Shown piece after piece: positions 8,828-41,648 of a stretch of 64,000 bases of DNA. The DNA is from Candidatus Woesearchaeota archaeon (GTDB lineage: Archaea > Nanobdellota > Nanobdellia > Woesearchaeales > UBA12501). The translations under genes and the position numbers were made by a program. The notes below the pieces were generated by a model. The model saw nothing but the letters and a program-made list of their open reading frames with translations. It searched no databases and had not been told where the DNA came from. The stretch covers positions 4,596 to 68,595 of the forward strand of contig JAWOBY010000048.1 in assembly GCA_046484055.1 (NCBI GenBank), written 5' to 3'. Each line of letters starts with the position of its first letter. Within the stretch, counting starts at the first letter, position 1.

Positions 8828-9505
8828 TCATGCTGTCTGGGCCCTGCCCTCTGCATGAGAATCCTGCCCCTGCACGCCCTCCTTCTTCATGAGAACCTTT
8901 TTTCTCTTGTTGGAATACCTGTGCGCTAGATGCAGCGGCTCGGGAAGCTTGTGGGGGTGGATTATGAACCTCTTGACAAGGTCTTCCGCGGTCCTTACGC
9001 TTATCCTGTGGCCGGGTGATACATAGAGGGGCTTTGCATAATCCCTTGTCTTGACCTCCGCAGCCCGTATCTCCTTGTCCACTTCCACTTTGCCTTCCAT
9101 AACTTTGCCCATCATCAGGTTTTTTGCGATGCCTATGGTTGGTACATCCAGGGCTATGCCCAGCTGGGATGCCATCCCTATCCTTCTCGGGTGCAGTATG
9201 CCGTTCGCATCAACCATGAGCACATCCGGCCTTGTCCTGAGCTTGCTGAACGCCTCTACCACAGCGGGCCCTTCCCTGTAGAACATGTAGCCTGGTATGT
9301 ATGGCATCCTGCATTCAGCCACTTCATGGGCCGAATCAACAATCTTCATGTTCCTGTCCATCACCACAACATATGATATTATCCTGTTGTCATCGGTATA
9401 TGCCTGATCGCAGCCCCCTATGTACTCGATATCCTCAAACATGTCATTTGTTATAACATTCTCCGCGAGTCTCTGCTGCTCTGACTTGAGCTTTAGCTTG
9501 TGCAT
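8828..9505 (-). CDS. nfi: endonuclease V
   Basis: YIGGCDQAY ... RMPYIPGYMFYREGPAVVEAF ... VLMVDANGILHPRRIGMASQLGIALDVPTIGIAK are canonical Nfi motifs. Confidence 0.85.
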   Translation of the reverse strand: MHKLKLKSEQQRLAENVITNDMFEDIEYIGGCDQAYTDDNRIISYVVVMDRNMKIVDSAHEVAECRMPYIPGYMFYREGPAVVEAFSKLRTRPDVLMVDANGILHPRRIGMASQLGIALDVPTIGIAKNLMMGKVMEGKVEVDKEIRAAEVKTRDYAKPLYVSPGHRISVRTAEDLVKRFIIHPHKLPEPLHLAHRYSNKRKKVLMKKEGVQGQDSHAEGRAQTA

Positions 9506-10545
9506 TCTTTGGCACCTCCTCCATTCTCCATCTCAGGGGAATATTCCACCACAATATTCCTATTCTTTGTATTCTTGGCTGCGTAAAGCGCCTTGTCCGC
9601 CCGGCGGTATATTGTATCATATATTTCTCTGGGCCTCATACCTTCAAAGTCTGAGGGATTGAATACTGTATATCCCATGCTTATGGTGATGCTTGTGCTG
9701 TCCTTGCCGGGGGTTTTTCCGTCCGGGGAAGTCATCAGTGAGTAGGTGTCCTTCTCATCAATCTTAGGGTATTCAGGCAGTCTTGTGTCCTCGACATTCT
9801 TCCTCATCCTCTCAACAACATCAAATGCACTTTCCTTTGGGACTCCGTAGAGAAGGAACATGAATTCCTCTCCCCCCATCCTTCCTCCCTGGTTCTCGTA
9901 ATCCCCTCCTCTCTCGCCTATATCCTCATCCCTCAATGAGCTGTTTAGAGATTCTGCCACTCTCTTGAGCGCTTCGTCGCCTGCGGGATAATGGCCATAA
10001 GTATTATTGTATTCCCCGAAATGGTCTATATCACCTATTGCTATAGTGAACTCTTCTCCTGTCCTGAGAGATCTCGCGATCTCCTGCTTTACCCTGTTCA
10101 TGAATGCTTCTCTCTTGTAGAGGCCTGTAAGCCCGTCAAAATTCACAAGATTGTCGACCTCATCTGCAAGCTCATCCCTATTGGTTTCAAGTCTCTTGTG
10201 TTCTTTCTGCATCTCGTTTATCATATTCTTGTAGGTATCTATCTTCTCCCTGATAAGGTTGGGGCTCTTGAGCGCTTCAGTGAAAGGGATTCTCTTGTCA
10301 AGGTCATATGACTGCGGTTTCCCCTCCTCCTTTCTCATCCCCAGCCTCTCGTAGTTCCTGTCAATCATGACCTCATACAATCCTATGGATTCTAGTAATG
10401 AGGTGATCTCTTCTCTCCGCTCAGAATAATAGTCGTAAAGGTCTGAAATCTGCTTAAGTGTCCTGAGATTCTCTTTTTCCCTGTCTGAAAGGCCGGCATT
10501 CGCGATCTCTTCCAGCTGGTTCTTCGGGTCTTCAGGCATTTCCAT
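9493..10545 (-). CDS. GGDEF-domain nucleotide cyclase (diguanylate cyclase-like) with N-terminal coiled coil
   Basis: DIDHFGEYNNTYGHYPAGDEALK ... GGRMGGEEFMFLLYG ... RADKALYAAKNTKNR. The maximal ORF reaches 10635 (GTG). The ATGs at 10545/10539 are preceded by AGGTGA, so I prefer them. The 3' end overlaps the nfi start by 13 nt. Confidence 0.8.
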   Translation of the reverse strand: MEMPEDPKNQLEEIANAGLSDREKENLRTLKQISDLYDYYSERREEITSLLESIGLYEVMIDRNYERLGMRKEEGKPQSYDLDKRIPFTEALKSPNLIREKIDTYKNMINEMQKEHKRLETNRDELADEVDNLVNFDGLTGLYKREAFMNRVKQEIARSLRTGEEFTIAIGDIDHFGEYNNTYGHYPAGDEALKRVAESLNSSLRDEDIGERGGDYENQGGRMGGEEFMFLLYGVPKESAFDVVERMRKNVEDTRLPEYPKIDEKDTYSLMTSPDGKTPGKDSTSITISMGYTVFNPSDFEGMRPREIYDTIYRRADKALYAAKNTKNRNIVVEYSPEMENGGGAKECTS

Positions 10546-10780: not shown

Positions 10781-11180
10781 TAAAAATTTGACCATTATCT
10801 TGTCAAAACCTAGCGGTTTTTCCCCTTTGTGTTCAACTGAAATCATTTAAACAGTTGAACACAACGTATAAGCAAGCCCTAACCACACCTTAAAAGGTGA
10901 GGTATTAACGGATTTGTACTTTACATGGTCAAATTTTTAGTCTTGAAAATTTCTCCCCTAAGTCGAAATTTTCAATAAGCTTTATTTGGGGTAATGCCTT
11001 TATAATGCCTCCAGAGAAGGTCAGGAGCGTCTGCAGTGGGTTGTGCTGGAGGATTAGGAAGGCCCCCCGTGGAAAGGATTTGTTGGGGGTGGTTGAGAAA
11101 ACAGAACCAATCAGGGGGGCCTTTGAAAATGAATATTCTGCCATTGCAGGACATTCGGTCTTGCATGGCATTGTTTTTTT
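10781..11180 (+). ncRNA. candidate structured non-coding RNA (family unknown)
   Basis: The region has no convincing ORF.
- A 15-bp long-range helix (10781-10795 / 10925-10939) encloses hairpins at 10827-10864 (13 bp) and 10805-10820 (6 bp).
- An 11-bp hairpin sits at 10943-10975.
- A 7-bp helix pairs 11008-11014 with 11046-11052.
- A 10-bp GC helix pairs 11059-11068 with 11114-11123.
- A terminal hairpin at 11140-11169 is followed by T7.
- Two G-U pairs are valid only on the + strand. Confidence 0.35.
11140..11180 (+). terminator. hairpin plus T7 run (terminator-like)
   Basis: GCCATTGCAGGAC attcg GTCTTGCATGGC forms 12 bp with one bulged T and one G-U pair. It is followed by attgTTTTTTT. Further T runs lie downstream (11201-11208). 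Confidence 0.45.
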
Positions 11181-38721: not shown

Positions 38722-39135
38722 ATGGGAATCACTCCAAAAGTAATAGCTGTTTTCGGCACCTTCGACACAATCCACAAGGGCCATCTTCATTTCTTCAGGC
38801 AGGCCAGGGATGCAGCAGGTCAGGATTCAAGACTGGTTGTTGTCATCGCCCGCGATTCCAATGTTGAGAAAGAGAAAGGAAAGGCCCCAAAACACAATGA
38901 AAAGGAAAGACTGGCCAAGGTGAAAGAGCTTGACATTGTTGATGACGCAGTTCTGGGCTCTCAGGTTATTGACTTCAGCATAATAGATGAGATAAGGCCT
39001 GACATCATAGCGCTGGGGTATGATCAGAAGAAGCCCGAGGGATTTGATGCTCATATAAAAGACAAGGATGTAGAGGTTGTAAGGCTGAAGCCTCACATGC
39101 CTGAGGAGTTCAAGAGTTCTAAGATGAAAAAGTAG
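38722..39135 (+). CDS. ribL: cytidylyltransferase-fold nucleotidyltransferase, probably archaeal FAD synthetase
   Basis: VFGTFDTIHKGHLHFF (the GxFDxxHxGH motif). About 137 aa. It is the last gene of the riboflavin operon. Confidence 0.65.
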   Translation: MGITPKVIAVFGTFDTIHKGHLHFFRQARDAAGQDSRLVVVIARDSNVEKEKGKAPKHNEKERLAKVKELDIVDDAVLGSQVIDFSIIDEIRPDIIALGYDQKKPEGFDAHIKDKDVEVVRLKPHMPEEFKSSKMKK

Positions 39136-39150
39136 GTATATTATTTCCAC

Positions 39151-39239
39151 AAAGCCGAAAACTGAAACATTTATGTAGCGAAAATCAGGGATTTTCTGGG
39201 TTTGTTAGACAAGCTAACAAACTTTCAGATGAAGGCTTT
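39151..39239. other. structured module M1
   Basis: The outer helix pairs AAAGCC 39151-56 with GGCTTT 39234-39, and CTGAAA 39162-67 with TTTCAG 39223-28. It encloses hairpin GAAAATC-agg-GATTTTC (39180-96) and hairpin TTTGTTAG-acaag-CTAACAAA (39201-21). Confidence 0.5.
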
Positions 39240-39249
39240 TGGAAAGCTT

Positions 39250-39427
39250 AAAAATCCGCTGTCAATACAATCGCCGTCAAACTGAAACAACAGAAAATAT
39301 TTCATATTTTCTTAGTTCCAAAACCTTCGGTTTTGAAACCTCATAAAAATGCAAAGCATTTTTAGGACGCCAAAAATCTATGATTTTTGAGCGTTTAGGT
39401 TTCAGTCAGGCGATTGTGCGGATTTTT
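39250..39427. other. structured module M2
   Basis: The composite outer helix has three segments:
- 10 bp: 39250-59 / 39418-27.
- 9 bp: 39267-75 / 39409-17.
- 8 bp: 39281-88 / 39399-406.
It encloses four perfect hairpins with 3-nt loops:
- 39292-312 (9 bp).
- 39319-35 (7 bp).
- 39345-63 (8 bp).
- 39371-89 (8 bp). Confidence 0.55.
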
Positions 39428-39449
39428 TTGATTTTATCTCTCTTATTCA

Positions 39450-39571
39450 GGCAGCAACAACAATGGATTCATACACGGTCAAAGCCTTCGGCTTTGCCCT
39501 ATTCGTAAAGGAAAAAACCACACTGCGTATGGTTTTTTCCTCTACACTCAGTATTCATCCTTGTTGCTGCC
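39450..39571. other. structured module M3
   Basis: The outer helix is 11 bp (39450-60 / 39561-71), then 4+4 bp (39465-74 / 39551-60). It encloses CAAAGCC-ttc-GGCTTTG (39480-96) and an 11-bp hairpin GGAAAAAACCA / TGGTTTTTTCC (39510-40). Confidence 0.5.
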
Positions 39572-39576
39572 AACGG

Positions 39577-39730
39577 GGCGGTGATGATGGCGCTGGCGAG
39601 GCGGGGGATGGTTGCCGAGCGTAGTGAGCGCAACTAAGGAAATCTCTGATTTCCTGTTCCCCCCTACGGGGTGGCGAGTAGGGCTCCGAACATAGTGAGG
39701 AGACCGTCAGCCGCCATAATCATCACCGCC
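39577..39730. other. structured GC-rich module M4
   Basis: The outer helix is 12 bp (39577-88 / 39719-30), then 4 bp (39589-92 / 39712-15), then 5 bp including one G-U (39593-97 / 39706-10). Inside are hairpin AGGAAATC-tct-GATTTCCT (39637-55) and two paralogous hairpins (39611-34 and 39682-705) with 11-nt loops GAGCGTAGTGA and GAACATAGTGA. Confidence 0.5.
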
Positions 39731-39800
39731 AAAAACATTAAGAAATAATTACAGACCAATGTTGTTGCTGCCTGCAAAAGACTATTAGAGAACTACTTAT

Positions 39801-41648
39801 TCAATAAAGTTCATTCACCATCTCAATATACATGGCATTTGACCACGCCTGCATGAGGCATCCCTTGCTCTGCATCTCACTGCTGGAGCTTATCTCAGCA
39901 TGATGGCCTACCGCCCCTCCGAAAAGTATCTCTTGAGTGCTGGCCCTTAGTATCCTGTCTATCTCTTCCCTGAACTTCCTCTTGTTGAGCCTGTGCATGC
40001 ATATCGCTGCGAGGTTGTTGAGCCAGTACCATGAATCACCGCGATGATAACTCCGGTCATTCTCTCCAGTGTGCGCACCGAAAAAGAGCGGATTCTCCTT
40101 GTCTATTGTTGATATTCCCCCCCACTCATTCCAGAGCTTCGGAAGGACTGTCCTGAAGCATTTTATCCACTGCTGTTTCGTCAGCAGTTCGGGATAGACA
40201 TAGTATGCGATGAACACATTTGGCCTTATTGTATCGTCATTCGCTCCGTCCTTGAGGTATTTTCCGTTCCAGAATGTCTCCCTGACTTTCTTCATGAGGT
40301 CATTCTCGAGATGCACTGCCATGTTATGGCCTATATCATCATTGAGTGTCCTGCAAAGGAGTTTCATGAGCCGGTACATGCAGAGCCTCAGTGCCTGTAT
40401 CTCGATCCTTATCCCCTCCCTGTCATCATCCTTGTAGGCGGTGTCCATCCAGGTCTCCAGCCTGCCGTTCACCGCGAAATCCTGCGCGGTGTGGTTGTTC
40501 CTCAGCTCATAGACCGTGTCCTCCACTTTCTTCTTCATGAACTCCAGATCCTCCTCAGAGAGGTATTCTGTTATCAGCTCTTTCCTGTAGAGCTCCTCAA
40601 AGAAGTCGTAGCATCGCTTCATCAGCCAGCCTATGGCATCAGCAGAGTCGAGATCAGAGCCTGGATATCTGTTGGGTATCCTTCCGTCATCCCTTATCTG
40701 TCTCAGCTGCCTGAAAAGTATCTCTTTCACTAAGTCATATTTCTCCTGGATCATCAGCGCTTTCAGGCTCACAGCCTCATCCCTTGTCCAGTACTGGAAG
40801 AACCACCACAGGCCTGCGTAGATCCCTTTCTTGTCCCTTATGGTGCTGACCAGATGGTCCAGTGATGAGCAGGCGGCCCTGTATGCCATGGTCGCCTTCG
40901 GGTCGTCGAACCCCCTGTTGAACTTCACATATGCCTGCTGCTTCTCCTTGACCTTCTTCAGGTCCTTTATCAGCTTATCGTTCTCTTTTATCGCTTTCTG
41001 CTTGTTCTTTGAGAATGATATGACCATGCGCCTGGCCCTTATCACTATTGCATTGTACACATGCCTCTCCCATGGCCAGGAGCCTCGTTCCTTGTCAAAA
41101 GGATATTGTACAGGAGAGAACTCATCTTTCTTACTGCACTCCTTGCCGTTGTCTATGACCACATAGACTATGTATTCCTTCTTCCCGTGGCTCTGGTCCT
41201 CCTGCTTGTCTGTCTTCTTGGTGAACTCAACTATTATCTTTCCTTTCTCGTTGTAGATCCTGTAATACCTGCCGAACTGCCTGCTGTCATACGCCTTCCT
41301 GACATCAAGGTCTATCTGTATATCAGCCTCCCTGCTCAGCTGATAGCCGATGGAGTTATGCATCAGCGGCATGAAAAGCGTTTCTTTCAGGCCGTCATCG
41401 CGCTCCCTCTCGATACAATAGAACCTGTTGATCATTCTCTTAACATCCCCTGAACTGAGAGGTGTTATGTTCTCCACCACCTTGAACATCTCGAAGTTGT
41501 CATTGAAGAATGCGCCCTGGTATCTTGAGGCAGGGAAATCGCTCAGGGAGAAGTAGCCGCCTATCTTGTTGGTCAGGATGAAGCTGGGGTTATGAGCCTT
41601 TCCTTCCACTTTTGACTTATCAATCTCATGGATAACATCAGTCATCAA
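39801..41648 (-). CDS. glycogen debranching enzyme (amylo-alpha-1,6-glucosidase, archaeal GDE type)
   Basis: GIYAGLWWFFQYWTRDEAVSLKAL. The C-terminal (alpha/alpha)6-barrel-like region has SYHRGDSWYWLNN and the CLMQAWS motif. Confidence 0.8.
   Translation of the reverse strand: MMTDVIHEIDKSKVEGKAHNPSFILTNKIGGYFSLSDFPASRYQGAFFNDNFEMFKVVENITPLSSGDVKRMINRFYCIERERDDGLKETLFMPLMHNSIGYQLSREADIQIDLDVRKAYDSRQFGRYYRIYNEKGKIIVEFTKKTDKQEDQSHGKKEYIVYVVIDNGKECSKKDEFSPVQYPFDKERGSWPWERHVYNAIVIRARRMVISFSKNKQKAIKENDKLIKDLKKVKEKQQAYVKFNRGFDDPKATMAYRAACSSLDHLVSTIRDKKGIYAGLWWFFQYWTRDEAVSLKALMIQEKYDLVKEILFRQLRQIRDDGRIPNRYPGSDLDSADAIGWLMKRCYDFFEELYRKELITEYLSEEDLEFMKKKVEDTVYELRNNHTAQDFAVNGRLETWMDTAYKDDDREGIRIEIQALRLCMYRLMKLLCRTLNDDIGHNMAVHLENDLMKKVRETFWNGKYLKDGANDDTIRPNVFIAYYVYPELLTKQQWIKCFRTVLPKLWNEWGGISTIDKENPLFFGAHTGENDRSYHRGDSWYWLNNLAAICMHRLNKRKFREEIDRILRASTQEILFGGAVGHHAEISSSSEMQSKGCLMQAWSNAMYIEMVNELY

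What the first reader, a model, noticed from the sequence alone, without database searches (positions are those of the whole stretch)
39577..39730. GC-rich module M4 contains two paralogous hairpins with a conserved 11-nt loop and covarying stems
M4 is closed by GGCGGTGATGAT (39577-88) pairing with ATCATCACCGCC (39719-30), plus 4 bp and then 5 bp more. This includes a G-U pair (39596:39707) that works only on the + strand.

Two internal hairpins look like duplicates:
- 39611-34: GTTGCC [GAGCGTAGTGA] G(C)GCAAC.
- 39682-705: GGCTCC [GAACATAGTGA] GGAG(A)CC.

The loops keep GA-C-TAGTGA. The stems are completely different in sequence yet both remain complementary. Each hairpin is preceded by GGCGAG (39595-600 and 39673-78).

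Conservation of a loop together with wholesale compensatory change in the stem is the classic signature of a selected RNA or protein-binding hairpin.

The module is markedly more GC-rich than M1-M2, in the way that structured RNAs stand out in AT-rich intergenic DNA.
Basis: seen in the sequence. Interest (0 to 1): 0.65.

Follow-up and report, generated by a model that had tools for sequence, protein, structure and literature searches.

The report
Widespread self-capped hairpins in archaeal spacer
The two look-alike hairpins are real, but their shared "loop" is a self-folding, extra-stable cap found on intergenic repeat hairpins across bacteria, archaea and viral contigs, and the hairpin-rich spacer holding them is a lineage-specific insertion, not a conserved RNA gene.

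Summary
M4 (39577-39730) folds as described, better on the + strand (-75.7 vs -63.8 kcal/mol; five G.U pairs vs none). It carries two hairpins with the 11-nt sequence GARCRTAGTGA.

The interpretation needs revising. The 11 nt are not an open loop. They form a cap: two tandem G.A pairs on a 2-bp mini-helix closed by a 3-nt loop. Scans found the same cap on hairpins with unrelated stems in diverse Bacteria, Halobacteria, a DPANN relative and viral contigs. These are mostly intergenic and often multi-copy or tandem. In 197 instances the two inner cap positions are Watson-Crick in 95%.

No K-turn geometry, Rfam family, paper, own promoter or M4 ortholog was found. Relatives keep the same convergent gene pair with a 12-nt spacer instead of 665 bp, so the block is an insertion. 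One relative (L002) has a ~310-nt RNA-gene-like element that shares short blocks with M4, but on the opposite strand and without the cap at the matching hairpin.

Best reading (about 0.5): a REP/BIME-like, strand-asymmetric palindromic insertion built from a generic ultra-stable hairpin module. Main rival (about 0.2): a fragment or member of an undescribed Woesearchaeal structured RNA family.

The parts
39136..39800 (.). Whole 665-bp hairpin-rich spacer between the convergent ribL-like gene (38722-39135, +) and the GDE_C gene (39801-41648, -). It is a lineage-specific insertion.
   Evidence: Fold z = -9.4 (+) and -16 (-). Of about 24 distinct perfect hairpins (stem >=7 bp, loop 3-5 nt) in the 64 kb, 8 lie here. 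Relative L307 has the same gene pair 12 nt apart. The rib operons of L073, L075, L076 and L077 have no spacer. No other copy exists in the window.
39577..39588 (+). P1, 5' arm of the perfect 12-bp closing inverted repeat GGCGGTGATGAT.
   Evidence: (I9).
39719..39730 (+). P1, 3' arm ATCATCACCGCC.
39589..39598 (+). P2, 5' strand. It pairs with 39705-39715, with C39711 bulged and G39596.U39707 as a wobble pair.
   Evidence: Pair list. The complement of this helix strand matches L002 1541-1559.
39705..39715 (+). P2, 3' strand. Its complement TGGCGGCTGACGG matches L002 1315-1327 at 12 of 13 positions.
39594..39600 (+). TGGCGAG, first copy of the short direct repeat ahead of hairpin 1 (TGGCGAGGCGGG).
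   Evidence: D8.
39603..39662 (+). P3 helix (39603-09 / 39656-62, with two G.U pairs). It encloses hairpin 1 and the AGGAAATC-TCT-GATTTCCT hairpin (39637-55).
39611..39634 (+). GA-capped hairpin 1: stem GUUGCC / G(C)GCAAC and cap GAGCGTAGTGA (39617-27). The cap reads as G.A, A.G, G.U, C-G, then loop GUA.
   Evidence: Model R1, built from non-window instances, scores it 15.8 bits, E = 0.01, the second-best hit in the window.
39663..39682 (+). Hairpin CCUAC-GGGGUGGCGA-GUAGG. Its complement matches L002 1347-1364 (CTACCGGCCACCCCGGAG) at 15 of 18 positions.
39672..39678 (+). TGGCGAG, second copy of the direct repeat ahead of hairpin 2 (TGGCGAGTAGGG).
   Evidence: D8.
39682..39705 (+). GA-capped hairpin 2: stem GGCUCC / GGAG(A)CC and cap GAACATAGTGA (39688-98). 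The cap reads as G.A, A.G, A-U, C-G, then loop AUA.
   Evidence: Model R1 scores it 20.9 bits, E = 1.2e-4, the best hit in the window. The same GAACATAGTGA cap occurs 17 times in the loci fetched, a count that includes M4's own hairpin 2.
39450..39466 (+). GGCAGCAACAACAATGG, left copy of a 17-26-nt arm. It can pair with 39553-71 (closing M3) or with 39756-81 (closing M3 plus M4).
   Evidence: (I1, I5).
39756..39772 (-). GGCAGCAACAACATTGG on the - strand, right copy of the arm. It matches L002 1301-1317 at 16 of 17 positions.
39731..39735 (-). T5 on the - strand immediately upstream of M4(-). With T7 (39423-29, +) and T6 (39533-38, +) it flanks M4 with archaeal-type oligo-T stop signals on both sides.
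   Evidence: Sequence read. That oligo-T runs stop archaeal RNA polymerase is from general knowledge and was not tested here.

Best explanation
**What it is.** M4 is the GC-rich right-hand module of a 665-bp block of nested palindromes. The block was inserted, in this lineage only, between two convergent housekeeping genes.

**The hairpins.** The two "paralogous" hairpins are local copies of a generic hairpin module. Its top 11 nt fold on themselves:
- two tandem G.A pairs;
- stacked on a 2-bp mini-helix;
- closed by a GNA-type three-base loop.

Both strands of the G.A step read pyrimidine-GA-purine. From general knowledge, that is the context in which tandem G.A pairs are sheared and stable.

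**Why it looks like a conserved loop.** I infer that most changes in the cap would weaken this compact fold, while any complementary stem will do underneath. That gives a "conserved loop plus covarying stem" pattern without needing a sequence-specific protein.

**How it acts.**
- The cap forms on one strand only (+ here), the same strand that carries M4's five wobble pairs. The element therefore acts as a single strand, either RNA or transiently unwound DNA.
- I infer that the block is a REP/BIME/REPIN-like selfish or structural element, tolerated in spacers at the 3' ends of genes.
- Its likely effect is that of a very stable structural block: a barrier to read-through and to 3'-to-5' decay if transcribed, or a hairpin extruded from single-stranded DNA.
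- It is not a dedicated, conserved RNA gene.

**Shown versus inferred.**
- Shown: the fold, the cap structure, the wide distribution and the insertion.
- Inferred: the REP-like nature and the physiological effect.
For: **Cap structure and spread**
- A scan of GTDB genomes with only the two loops specified gave 43 loci, against about 8 expected (my estimate for uniform composition). They come from many bacterial phyla and Halobacteria, plus 2 viral loci.
- Flanks not required by the pattern are complementary. 76 of 129 loops have 4 or more paired flanking bases, and 79 of 129 have CC...GG closings.
- Copies are multi-copy or tandem in several genomes.
- Viral scans with the inner positions left free gave 197 distinct instances, 95% Watson-Crick at the inner pair. 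The middle base of the 3-nt loop is A > C > T > G.
- The cap was found on 50 different 5-bp stems.
- d(GCGNAGC) mini-hairpins are exceptionally stable, and much more so as DNA than as RNA (PMC13037366).

**REP-like habits**
- 37 of 45 clusters are intergenic. The commonest setting is between convergent genes (13), as here, and only 3 lie in divergent spacers.
- There is no shared neighbouring gene and no Rfam family.
- Few copies are followed by T runs: 26 of 311.

**Insertion**
- L307/L308 have GDE and ribL convergent with a 12-nt spacer.
- L073, L075, L076 and L077 have no spacer after ribL.
- Hairpin density in the block is about 30 times the window average.

**Alternating structural strands, as in BIMEs**
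- M3 prefers the - strand (5 G.U pairs, -64.5 vs -52.8 kcal/mol). M4 prefers the + strand.

**No sign of an RNA gene**
- No CAAAAA + TATA-type promoter of this genome lies upstream of M4 on either strand.
- Oligo-T runs flank M4 on both sides.
Against: - Only one locus exists in 64 kb, whereas REP-type elements are normally multi-copy. The rest of the genome was not available.
- No HUH/RAYT, TnpA/TnpB or integrase family was hit by the 58 window ORFs scanned against Pfam.
- Five G.U pairs are more typical of selection on RNA than on DNA.
- The related L002 element looks like a real RNA gene, with a promoter-like TATA, a GC-rich body and a T6 run.
- The physiological effect was not tested in any way.
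Confidence: 0.5

Rival explanations
1. M4, alone or as the 328-nt domain 39448-39775, is a member or rearranged copy of an undescribed family of structured non-coding RNAs of Woesearchaeota-like DPANN archaea. The ~310-nt element of L002 would be an intact gene of that family. In this reading the GA-capped hairpins are stabilising or protein-docking modules of the RNA.
For: - L002 1258-1572 is GC-rich and structured (z = -5.4).
- A TTTTTAAG box like this genome's promoters lies 25-30 nt upstream, and the element ends in T6.
- It carries a perfect GA-capped hairpin, scored 29 bits with E = 1e-7.
- It shares colinear blocks with the window: 16 of 17, 12 of 13 and 15 of 18 positions, plus GCCTCGC...GCCA. 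The 17-mer alone scores 29 against a shuffle mean of 18.3 +/- 3.0.
- A hairpin sits at the same place between the blocks in both elements.
- M4 has 5 G.U pairs on one strand only.
Against: - The shared blocks lie on the window's - strand, while the cap and the wobble pairs favour +. The two lines of evidence therefore disagree on strand.
- The cap is not conserved at the matching hairpin.
- No promoter lies upstream of M4, and the 5' 43 nt of the L002 element have no counterpart in the window.
- The spacer is absent from the same locus in relatives.
- Only two sequences are available, so covariation in P1-P3 cannot be tested.
Confidence: 0.22
2. The functional strand is the complement. There the 11 nt form an open pyrimidine-rich loop (TCACTACGCTC / TCACTATGTTC) on a stem, as at the nick sites of HUH (rolling-circle Rep, relaxase or Y1 transposase) enzymes. 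The hairpins would be cleavage or recognition sites of such an enzyme acting on single-stranded DNA, and that enzyme would spread them.
For: - The hairpins are strand-asymmetric, multi-copy, often tandem and intergenic, and occur in Bacteria, Archaea and viral contigs.
- Classical REPs are bound and cut as single-stranded hairpins by RAYT enzymes (PMC4690160; PMC2817692 abstract).
- From memory only, and not tested: the pMV158-type nick sequence TACTACG shares ACTACG with the complement of hairpin 1.
- One hit family lies next to a group II intron (L037).
Against: - The inner pair covaries, and purine/pyrimidine polarity is kept (x1 purine in 165 instances vs 23). This argues that the GA strand fold is what is selected.
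- The middle loop base is free (A > C > T > G), so the GTAG / ACTACG word is not conserved in the family.
- No HUH gene was found near the hits, and none of the 58 window ORFs scanned hit an HUH family.
Confidence: 0.1
3. The hairpins are K-loop or K-turn sites for L7Ae (or sites for Alba) within an archaeal RNP RNA.
For: - Tandem G.A pairs are present.
- GUGAUGA (39581-87) resembles a C box.
- The organism is an archaeon.
Against: - The G.A pairs abut the Watson-Crick stem on both strands. The 3-nt bulge that defines a K-turn or K-loop is missing (sequence).
- No D box (CUGA) lies near the 3' end. The ACA at 39736-38 lies 5 nt 3' of the stem, and no guide pocket is evident.
- The same cap is abundant in Bacteria, which lack L7Ae-guided RNPs.
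- There is no Rfam hit.
Confidence: 0.03
4. The block is a chromosomal replication origin or another duplex-DNA protein-binding region. The repeated arms (three copies of GGCAGCAACAACA, and AAACTGAAACA in two direct copies plus one partial inverted copy) would be initiator-binding sites.
For: - The spacer is long, and M1-M2 are AT-rich (GC 0.32-0.34).
- Repeated arms occur in both orientations.
- Mini-hairpins occur at priming sites of phage and plasmid origins (PMC13037366).
Against: - The block lies between convergent genes.
- None of the 58 window ORFs scanned hit an Orc1/Cdc6 family.
- The block is absent from the same locus in relatives.
- The strand-specific wobble pairs and caps point to single-strand folding.
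Confidence: 0.03

Closest known systems
REP / BIME / REPIN elements of bacteria (repetitive extragenic palindromes)
   Same: - Short, GC-rich, imperfect palindromes in intergenic DNA, mostly at the 3' ends of genes and between convergent genes.
- Often clustered, with alternating orientation.
- They act as single-stranded hairpins.
- Reported in both Bacteria and Archaea (PMC12306157, PMC2817692, PMC4690160).
   Different: - Classical REPs carry a GTAG/GTGG head 5' of the palindrome and are linked to RAYT genes (Table I). Here the constant part is the cap at the top of the hairpin, and GTAG appears only when the free loop base happens to be T.
- No RAYT was found among the ORFs scanned.
- Only one locus was seen in 64 kb.
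DNA mini-hairpins d(GCGNAGC) (Hirao and colleagues)
   Same: The centre of the cap (R-C-GNA-G-Y) has this form: two pairs plus a three-base loop closed by a sheared G.A pair. The motif is known for extreme stability and nuclease resistance, and occurs at phage G4, RSF1010 ssiA and N4 promoter hairpins (PMC13037366).
   Different: - Here the mini-hairpin sits on two tandem G.A pairs and a variable stem, and is dispersed as a repeat.
- M4 hairpin 2 has ATA instead of GNA, and hairpin 1 has a G.T/U pair. Both are weaker variants.
- Stability of the full 11-nt cap was not measured.
K-turn / K-loop motifs bound by L7Ae
   Same: Tandem sheared G.A pairs next to a Watson-Crick stem in an archaeal sequence.
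   Different: There is no 3-nt bulge, so no kink is expected. The motif is also common in Bacteria.
MITEs and nested palindromic insertions in prokaryotic spacers
   Same: - A perfect 12-bp terminal inverted repeat.
- An insertion relative to sister genomes.
- An 11-bp direct repeat TTGTTGCTGCC at 39561-71 and 39762-72 on either side of M4 (D6).
   Different: - The direct repeats are not adjacent to the inverted repeat, and they are part of longer arms.
- No second copy and no parent transposase were found.

Membership tests
GA-capped intergenic hairpin repeats (unnamed class defined here) | 11-nt cap GA-x1-C-(G/A)NA-G-y1-GA, with x1:y1 able to pair. | tested here: met
   Hairpin 1 is GAGCGTAGTGA (x1:y1 = G.U). 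Hairpin 2 is GAACATAGTGA (A-U, with an ATA loop variant seen 17 times in the set, which includes M4's own copy).
GA-capped intergenic hairpin repeats | A Watson-Crick stem of 4 or more bp directly flanking the cap, usually closed by C-G. | tested here: met
   Both hairpins have CC...G(G) closings and 6-bp stems with one bulged base.
GA-capped intergenic hairpin repeats | Scores as a member with a covariance model built without the window's sequences. | tested here: met
   Model R1 gives 20.9 bits (E = 1.2e-4) and 15.8 bits (E = 0.01). These are the top two hits in the window and both are on +. Caveat: the training set was retrieved with loop patterns derived from M4, so the loop match is partly circular.
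GA-capped intergenic hairpin repeats | Intergenic, mostly at 3' ends of genes or between convergent genes. | tested here: met
   M4 lies between convergent genes. This is also the commonest setting among the 45 clusters.
GA-capped intergenic hairpin repeats | Several dispersed or tandem copies per genome. | tested here: inconclusive
   Only the two copies inside M4 exist in the 64 kb. The rest of the genome was not available.
Classical REP / RAYT system | Conserved GTAG or GTGG tetranucleotide 5' of the palindrome. | tested here: not met
   No GTRG head lies ahead of either stem. In the wider class the base that would make GTAG inside the cap is free (A 108, C 41, T 33, G 15).
Classical REP / RAYT system | A RAYT (Y1 HUH transposase) gene in the genome. 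| tested here: inconclusive
   No such family was hit by the 58 window ORFs scanned. The whole genome was not available.
K-turn / K-loop (L7Ae site) | A 3-nt bulge between the canonical stem and the tandem G.A pairs on the 5' strand. | tested here: not met
   GA follows the stem directly on both strands.
Box C/D sRNA | A C box RUGAUGA near the 5' end and a D box CUGA near the 3' end, brought together by a terminal stem. | tested here: not met
   GUGAUGA is present at 39581-87, but no CUGA lies near 39705-30 on +. There is no Rfam hit.
Any Rfam 15 family (including SRP RNA, RNase P RNA, FMN riboswitch, H/ACA and C/D sRNAs) | A match to a curated covariance model. | tested here: not met
   No match at gathering score in the window. 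Nothing overlaps the M4 hairpins at E <= 10. None was found at bacterial hit sites or in L002.
MITE | Terminal inverted repeats, flanking target-site duplication and multiple copies. | tested here: inconclusive
   A 12-bp perfect inverted repeat is present. No duplication abuts it. No second copy exists in the window, in relatives' loci or in the phage and plasmid collections.
Hairpin-plus-oligo-T terminator | A T run directly 3' of the hairpin. | tested here: not met
   No T run follows either M4 hairpin. Only 26 of 311 family instances have 4 or more T within 14 nt.

The most novel reading that the evidence does not exclude
Two linked possibilities remain open.
- The GA-capped hairpin (tandem G.A pairs + 2-bp helix + GNA loop) could define a so-far unnamed, pan-prokaryotic class of repeat or mobile hairpin. 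Its cap would be the nucleation or recognition element of an unknown single-strand process.
- M4 together with the L002 element could belong to a new family of structured RNAs, or RNA-derived mobile elements, in Woesearchaeota-like archaea.
Probability: 0.2. Interest if true: 0.7.

Novelty: new variant of a known kind. Interest (0 to 1): 0.4.

Why it matters
- **For genome scans.** A conserved loop with covarying stems is usually read as a protein- or ligand-binding RNA. This case shows the same signature arising from the physics of a self-closing cap, which matters when triaging similar candidates.
- **For repeat biology.** The same 11-nt cap sits on unrelated stems in Bacteria, Halobacteria, DPANN archaea and viral contigs. 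I found no Rfam family and no paper for it. If it is truly undescribed, it gives a simple, searchable definition of a very widespread class of intergenic repeat. It also raises the question of what spreads or selects it.
- **For this genome.** The block marks a recent insertion at a conserved gene junction.

Tried and rejected
**Known RNA and coding classes**
- Rfam at gathering score and at E <= 10 on the window, on bacterial hit loci and on relatives gave nothing relevant.
- No tRNA or tmRNA was found.
- I read the sequence for K-turn, C/D box, H/ACA, SRP RNA helix 8, RNase P conserved regions and the FMN riboswitch (M4 lies next to a rib operon). None fits.
- The bacterial hits are not CRISPR arrays. 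They are tandem repeats without unique spacers.

**Search for M4 orthologs**
- The JGI metagenome scan with TGGCGAG...loop...TGGCGAG returned only an unrelated coding gene and other chance matches.
- Synteny walks from GDE and ribL homologs showed that the spacer is absent.
- Two look-ups with window ORFs failed, probably because the start codons differ.
- Viral scans for the 17-mer returned 53 matches that were not examined further; I take them for chance or coding matches. The block-pair pattern gave 0.

**Other collections and literature**
- BLAST of the block, and of consensus hairpins, against phages and plasmids gave no match.
- Literature searches by sequence word gave nothing relevant.

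**Ideas dropped**
- A shared neighbouring gene at the hits: none.
- An orientation bias relative to flanking genes: none clear.
- A terminator role: few T runs.

Full report
**Context**

The window is a chromosomal stretch of a DPANN archaeon of the Woesearchaeota/Nanoarchaeota type. The nearest homologs of two flanking proteins carry those names. The genes are housekeeping ones: riboflavin and glycogen metabolism, SRP54, eIF2-gamma, NMD3, an XPD-like helicase and endonuclease V. None of the 58 ORFs scanned hit a transposase, integrase, Rep or Orc1/Cdc6 family.

M4 lies in a 665-bp spacer (39136-39800). The spacer sits between the 3' ends of a ribL-like gene (+) and a GDE_C gene (-).

**Checking the observation**

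- RNAfold reproduces the closing helix: 12 bp, an AUA bulge, 4 bp, a bulged C, then 6 bp including G39596.U39707.
- It also finds a multi-branch junction with four hairpins.
- The fold is better than shuffles (z = -4.5 on +, -3.1 on -).
- It is clearly better on the + strand: -75.7 kcal/mol with 58 pairs and 5 G.U, against -63.8 kcal/mol with 50 pairs and no G.U.

Two corrections are needed.
- Three of the six stem pairs are the same in the two hairpins, and three differ on both sides.
- RNAfold pairs positions 3-4 of each 11-nt "loop" with positions 8-9.

**What the "loop" is**

Read as a structure, GA-RC-NNN-GY-GA has three parts:
- two tandem G.A pairs;
- a 2-bp mini-helix;
- a three-base loop (GTA in hairpin 1, ATA in hairpin 2).

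The centre is the d(GCGNAGC) mini-hairpin type, known for extreme stability and more stable as DNA than as RNA (PMC13037366). Both G.A steps sit in a pyrimidine-GA-purine context. From general knowledge, that context favours sheared tandem G.A pairs. The complement (TCACTAYGYTC) cannot form such a cap, so the structure is strand-specific.

**The same cap elsewhere**

A scan of one genome per GTDB species specified only the two loops and their spacing.
- It returned 43 loci, against roughly 8 expected by my estimate for uniform composition.
- The sources include Legionella, delta-proteobacterial and Myxococcaceae MAGs, Bacteroidota, Chloroflexia, Firmicutes, Acidobacteriota and four Halobacteria loci. 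Two viral loci were also found.
- Features not imposed by the pattern appear. The bases flanking the loop are complementary (4 or more pairs in 76 of 129 loops; CC...GG closings in 79 of 129).
- The stems are unrelated between genomes.
- Copies are often multiple or tandem within a genome.

Two further viral-contig scans fixed a stem and left the inner cap positions free.
- They gave 197 distinct instances.
- The inner pair is G:C 78, A:T 87, C:G 22, T:A 1 and non-Watson-Crick 9.
- The middle loop base is A > C > T > G.
- This covariation shows that the mini-helix is real. The purine-first polarity (165 vs 23) fits the G.A context rule.

I collected 50 different 5-bp stems carrying the cap. 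Pair counts on that set are 100% by construction and add nothing.

A covariance model built from them ranks M4 hairpin 2 and hairpin 1 first and second in the window (20.9 and 15.8 bits). The training set descends from M4-derived patterns, so this shows consistency rather than independence.

**Habits of the class**
- Clusters are mostly intergenic (37 of 45).
- The commonest setting is between convergent genes (13). Clusters are rare in divergent spacers (3). There is no clear orientation bias.
- There is no shared neighbouring gene.
- Few copies are followed by T runs (26 of 311).
- There is no Rfam family.
- Sequence-word searches of the paper library found nothing.

The nearest described kind is the REP/BIME family. 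Classical REPs, however, have a GTAG/GTGG head outside the palindrome and a RAYT partner (PMC4690160). In this class the base that would make GTAG is free.

**M4 as a unit**
- No part of the spacer recurs in the window.
- The window's contig is absent from all three collections scanned: the loop pattern used on GTDB representatives and viral contigs, and the TGGCGAG pattern used on JGI metagenomes, both match M4 itself, yet neither returned a self-hit.
- Relatives with 69-82% identical RibL keep the rib operon, but the next gene overlaps the ribL end.
- A relative with 60% identical GDE (L307/L308) has the same glycogen-gene, GDE, ribL arrangement as the window, with 12 nt between the convergent genes.

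The 665-bp block is therefore an insertion in this lineage. It holds 8 of the roughly 24 perfect hairpins of the whole window.

Another relative (L074) also has at least 466 nt of repeat-rich non-coding DNA after ribL. Its sequence is unrelated.

**A related element**

Contig L002 (GDE 73% identical) has a 497-nt spacer between NMD3 and GDE. Inside it is a ~310-nt GC-rich structured element (z = -5.4).
- It carries a perfect GA-capped hairpin, GAACCATC-GAACGAAGTGA-GATGGTTC.
- A TTTTTAAG box resembling this genome's promoters lies 25-30 nt upstream.
- It ends in a T6 run.
- It has no Rfam match.

The element shares colinear blocks with the window's minus strand:
- the 17-mer arm, 16 of 17;
- TGGCGGC(A/T)GACGG, 12 of 13;
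- then a hairpin;
- then CTACCGGCCACCCCGGAG, 15 of 18;
- and the partner strand of P2.

At the hairpin position L002 has a plain TTT loop, where the window has the complement of GA-capped hairpin 2. The cap is thus not conserved at the matching position. The strand implied by the shared blocks is also opposite to the strand implied by the cap and the wobble pairs. I could not resolve this conflict with only two sequences.

**Expression signals**

Promoters of this genome have a CAAAAA-type element followed by TATATAA or TTTAAA. None lies upstream of M4 on either strand. M4 is flanked by T7 and T6 runs on the + side and a T5 run on the - side. From general knowledge, such runs should stop archaeal RNA polymerase coming from either gene. 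This is inference, not measurement.

**Module polarity**

M3 folds better on the - strand (5 G.U pairs, -64.5 vs -52.8 kcal/mol) and M4 on the + strand. GNA three-base loops sit on - in M2/M3 (CC-GAA-GG twice, C-GCA-G once) and on + in M4. The 17-26-nt arms at 39441-66 and 39756-81 are inverted. Together this resembles the alternating orientation of REPs in BIMEs, or an inverted doublet.

**Verdict**
It is wrong on the nature of the loop, and a dedicated L7Ae-type RNA is not supported.
- The most likely reading is a REP/BIME-like, strand-asymmetric palindromic insertion built from a generic, physically ultra-stable hairpin module.
- A fragment or member of an undescribed Woesearchaeal structured RNA family remains a serious rival.
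- The wide spread of the cap, with no name that I could find, is the most interesting by-product.

Noticed in passing
L002 1258-1572 (+) (ENA ERZ4903055, contig k141_614769): A ~310-nt GC-rich structured element lies between NMD3 and GDE in a relative. It has a promoter-like TTTTTAAG box upstream, a T6 run at its end and a perfect GA-capped hairpin. No Rfam match appears even at E <= 10. It is probably an undescribed archaeal RNA gene.
   Followed up: partly
window 11000-11180 (+): A TATA-like TTTATAAT is followed by a ~170-nt three-hairpin GC-rich fold that ends in T7 (z = -2.6). There is no Rfam hit. It is a candidate small RNA gene.
   Followed up: partly
window 39144-39572 (modules M1-M3): These modules hold perfect AT-rich palindromes with 3-nt centres (TTC three times, AAA, TAT, TGC, AGG). 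On the - strand several become C-GAA-G or C-GCA-G mini-hairpins. M3 folds better on - while M4 folds better on +.
   Followed up: partly
window 39561-39571 and 39762-39772: An 11-bp direct repeat TTGTTGCTGCC lies on either side of M4. It is part of three copies of a 17-26-nt arm, which allows two alternative long-range pairings for 39450-66.
   Followed up: partly
L074 649-1114: A relative with 81% identical RibL also has at least 466 nt of non-coding, internally repeated hairpin DNA directly after ribL. It is unrelated in sequence apart from GGCGAGG words. This suggests the junction is a hot spot for such insertions.
   Followed up: partly
L311 12-30: GGGGAAAC-GTA-GTTTCCCC lies upstream of GDE in another relative. 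It has the same ACGTAGT mini-hairpin top as the cap, but A-T pairs where the cap has G.A pairs.
   Followed up: no
L004 7518-7690; L024 5519-6361; L027 6560-6694; L044 2067-2185: In some bacterial and viral contigs the GA-capped hairpins form head-to-tail arrays with periods of 31-36 nt and no unique spacers.
   Followed up: no
L037 5666-5743 and 5907-6523: In a Myxococcaceae MAG a pair of GA-capped hairpins lies about 165 nt upstream of a group II intron (Rfam RF02001 and RF00029).
   Followed up: no
window 1-64000: No tRNA gene and no Rfam family at gathering score were found in 64 kb of an archaeal chromosome.
   Followed up: no
window 9493-10545 (-): A GGDEF (diguanylate cyclase) domain protein is encoded in a DPANN archaeal contig.
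   Followed up: no
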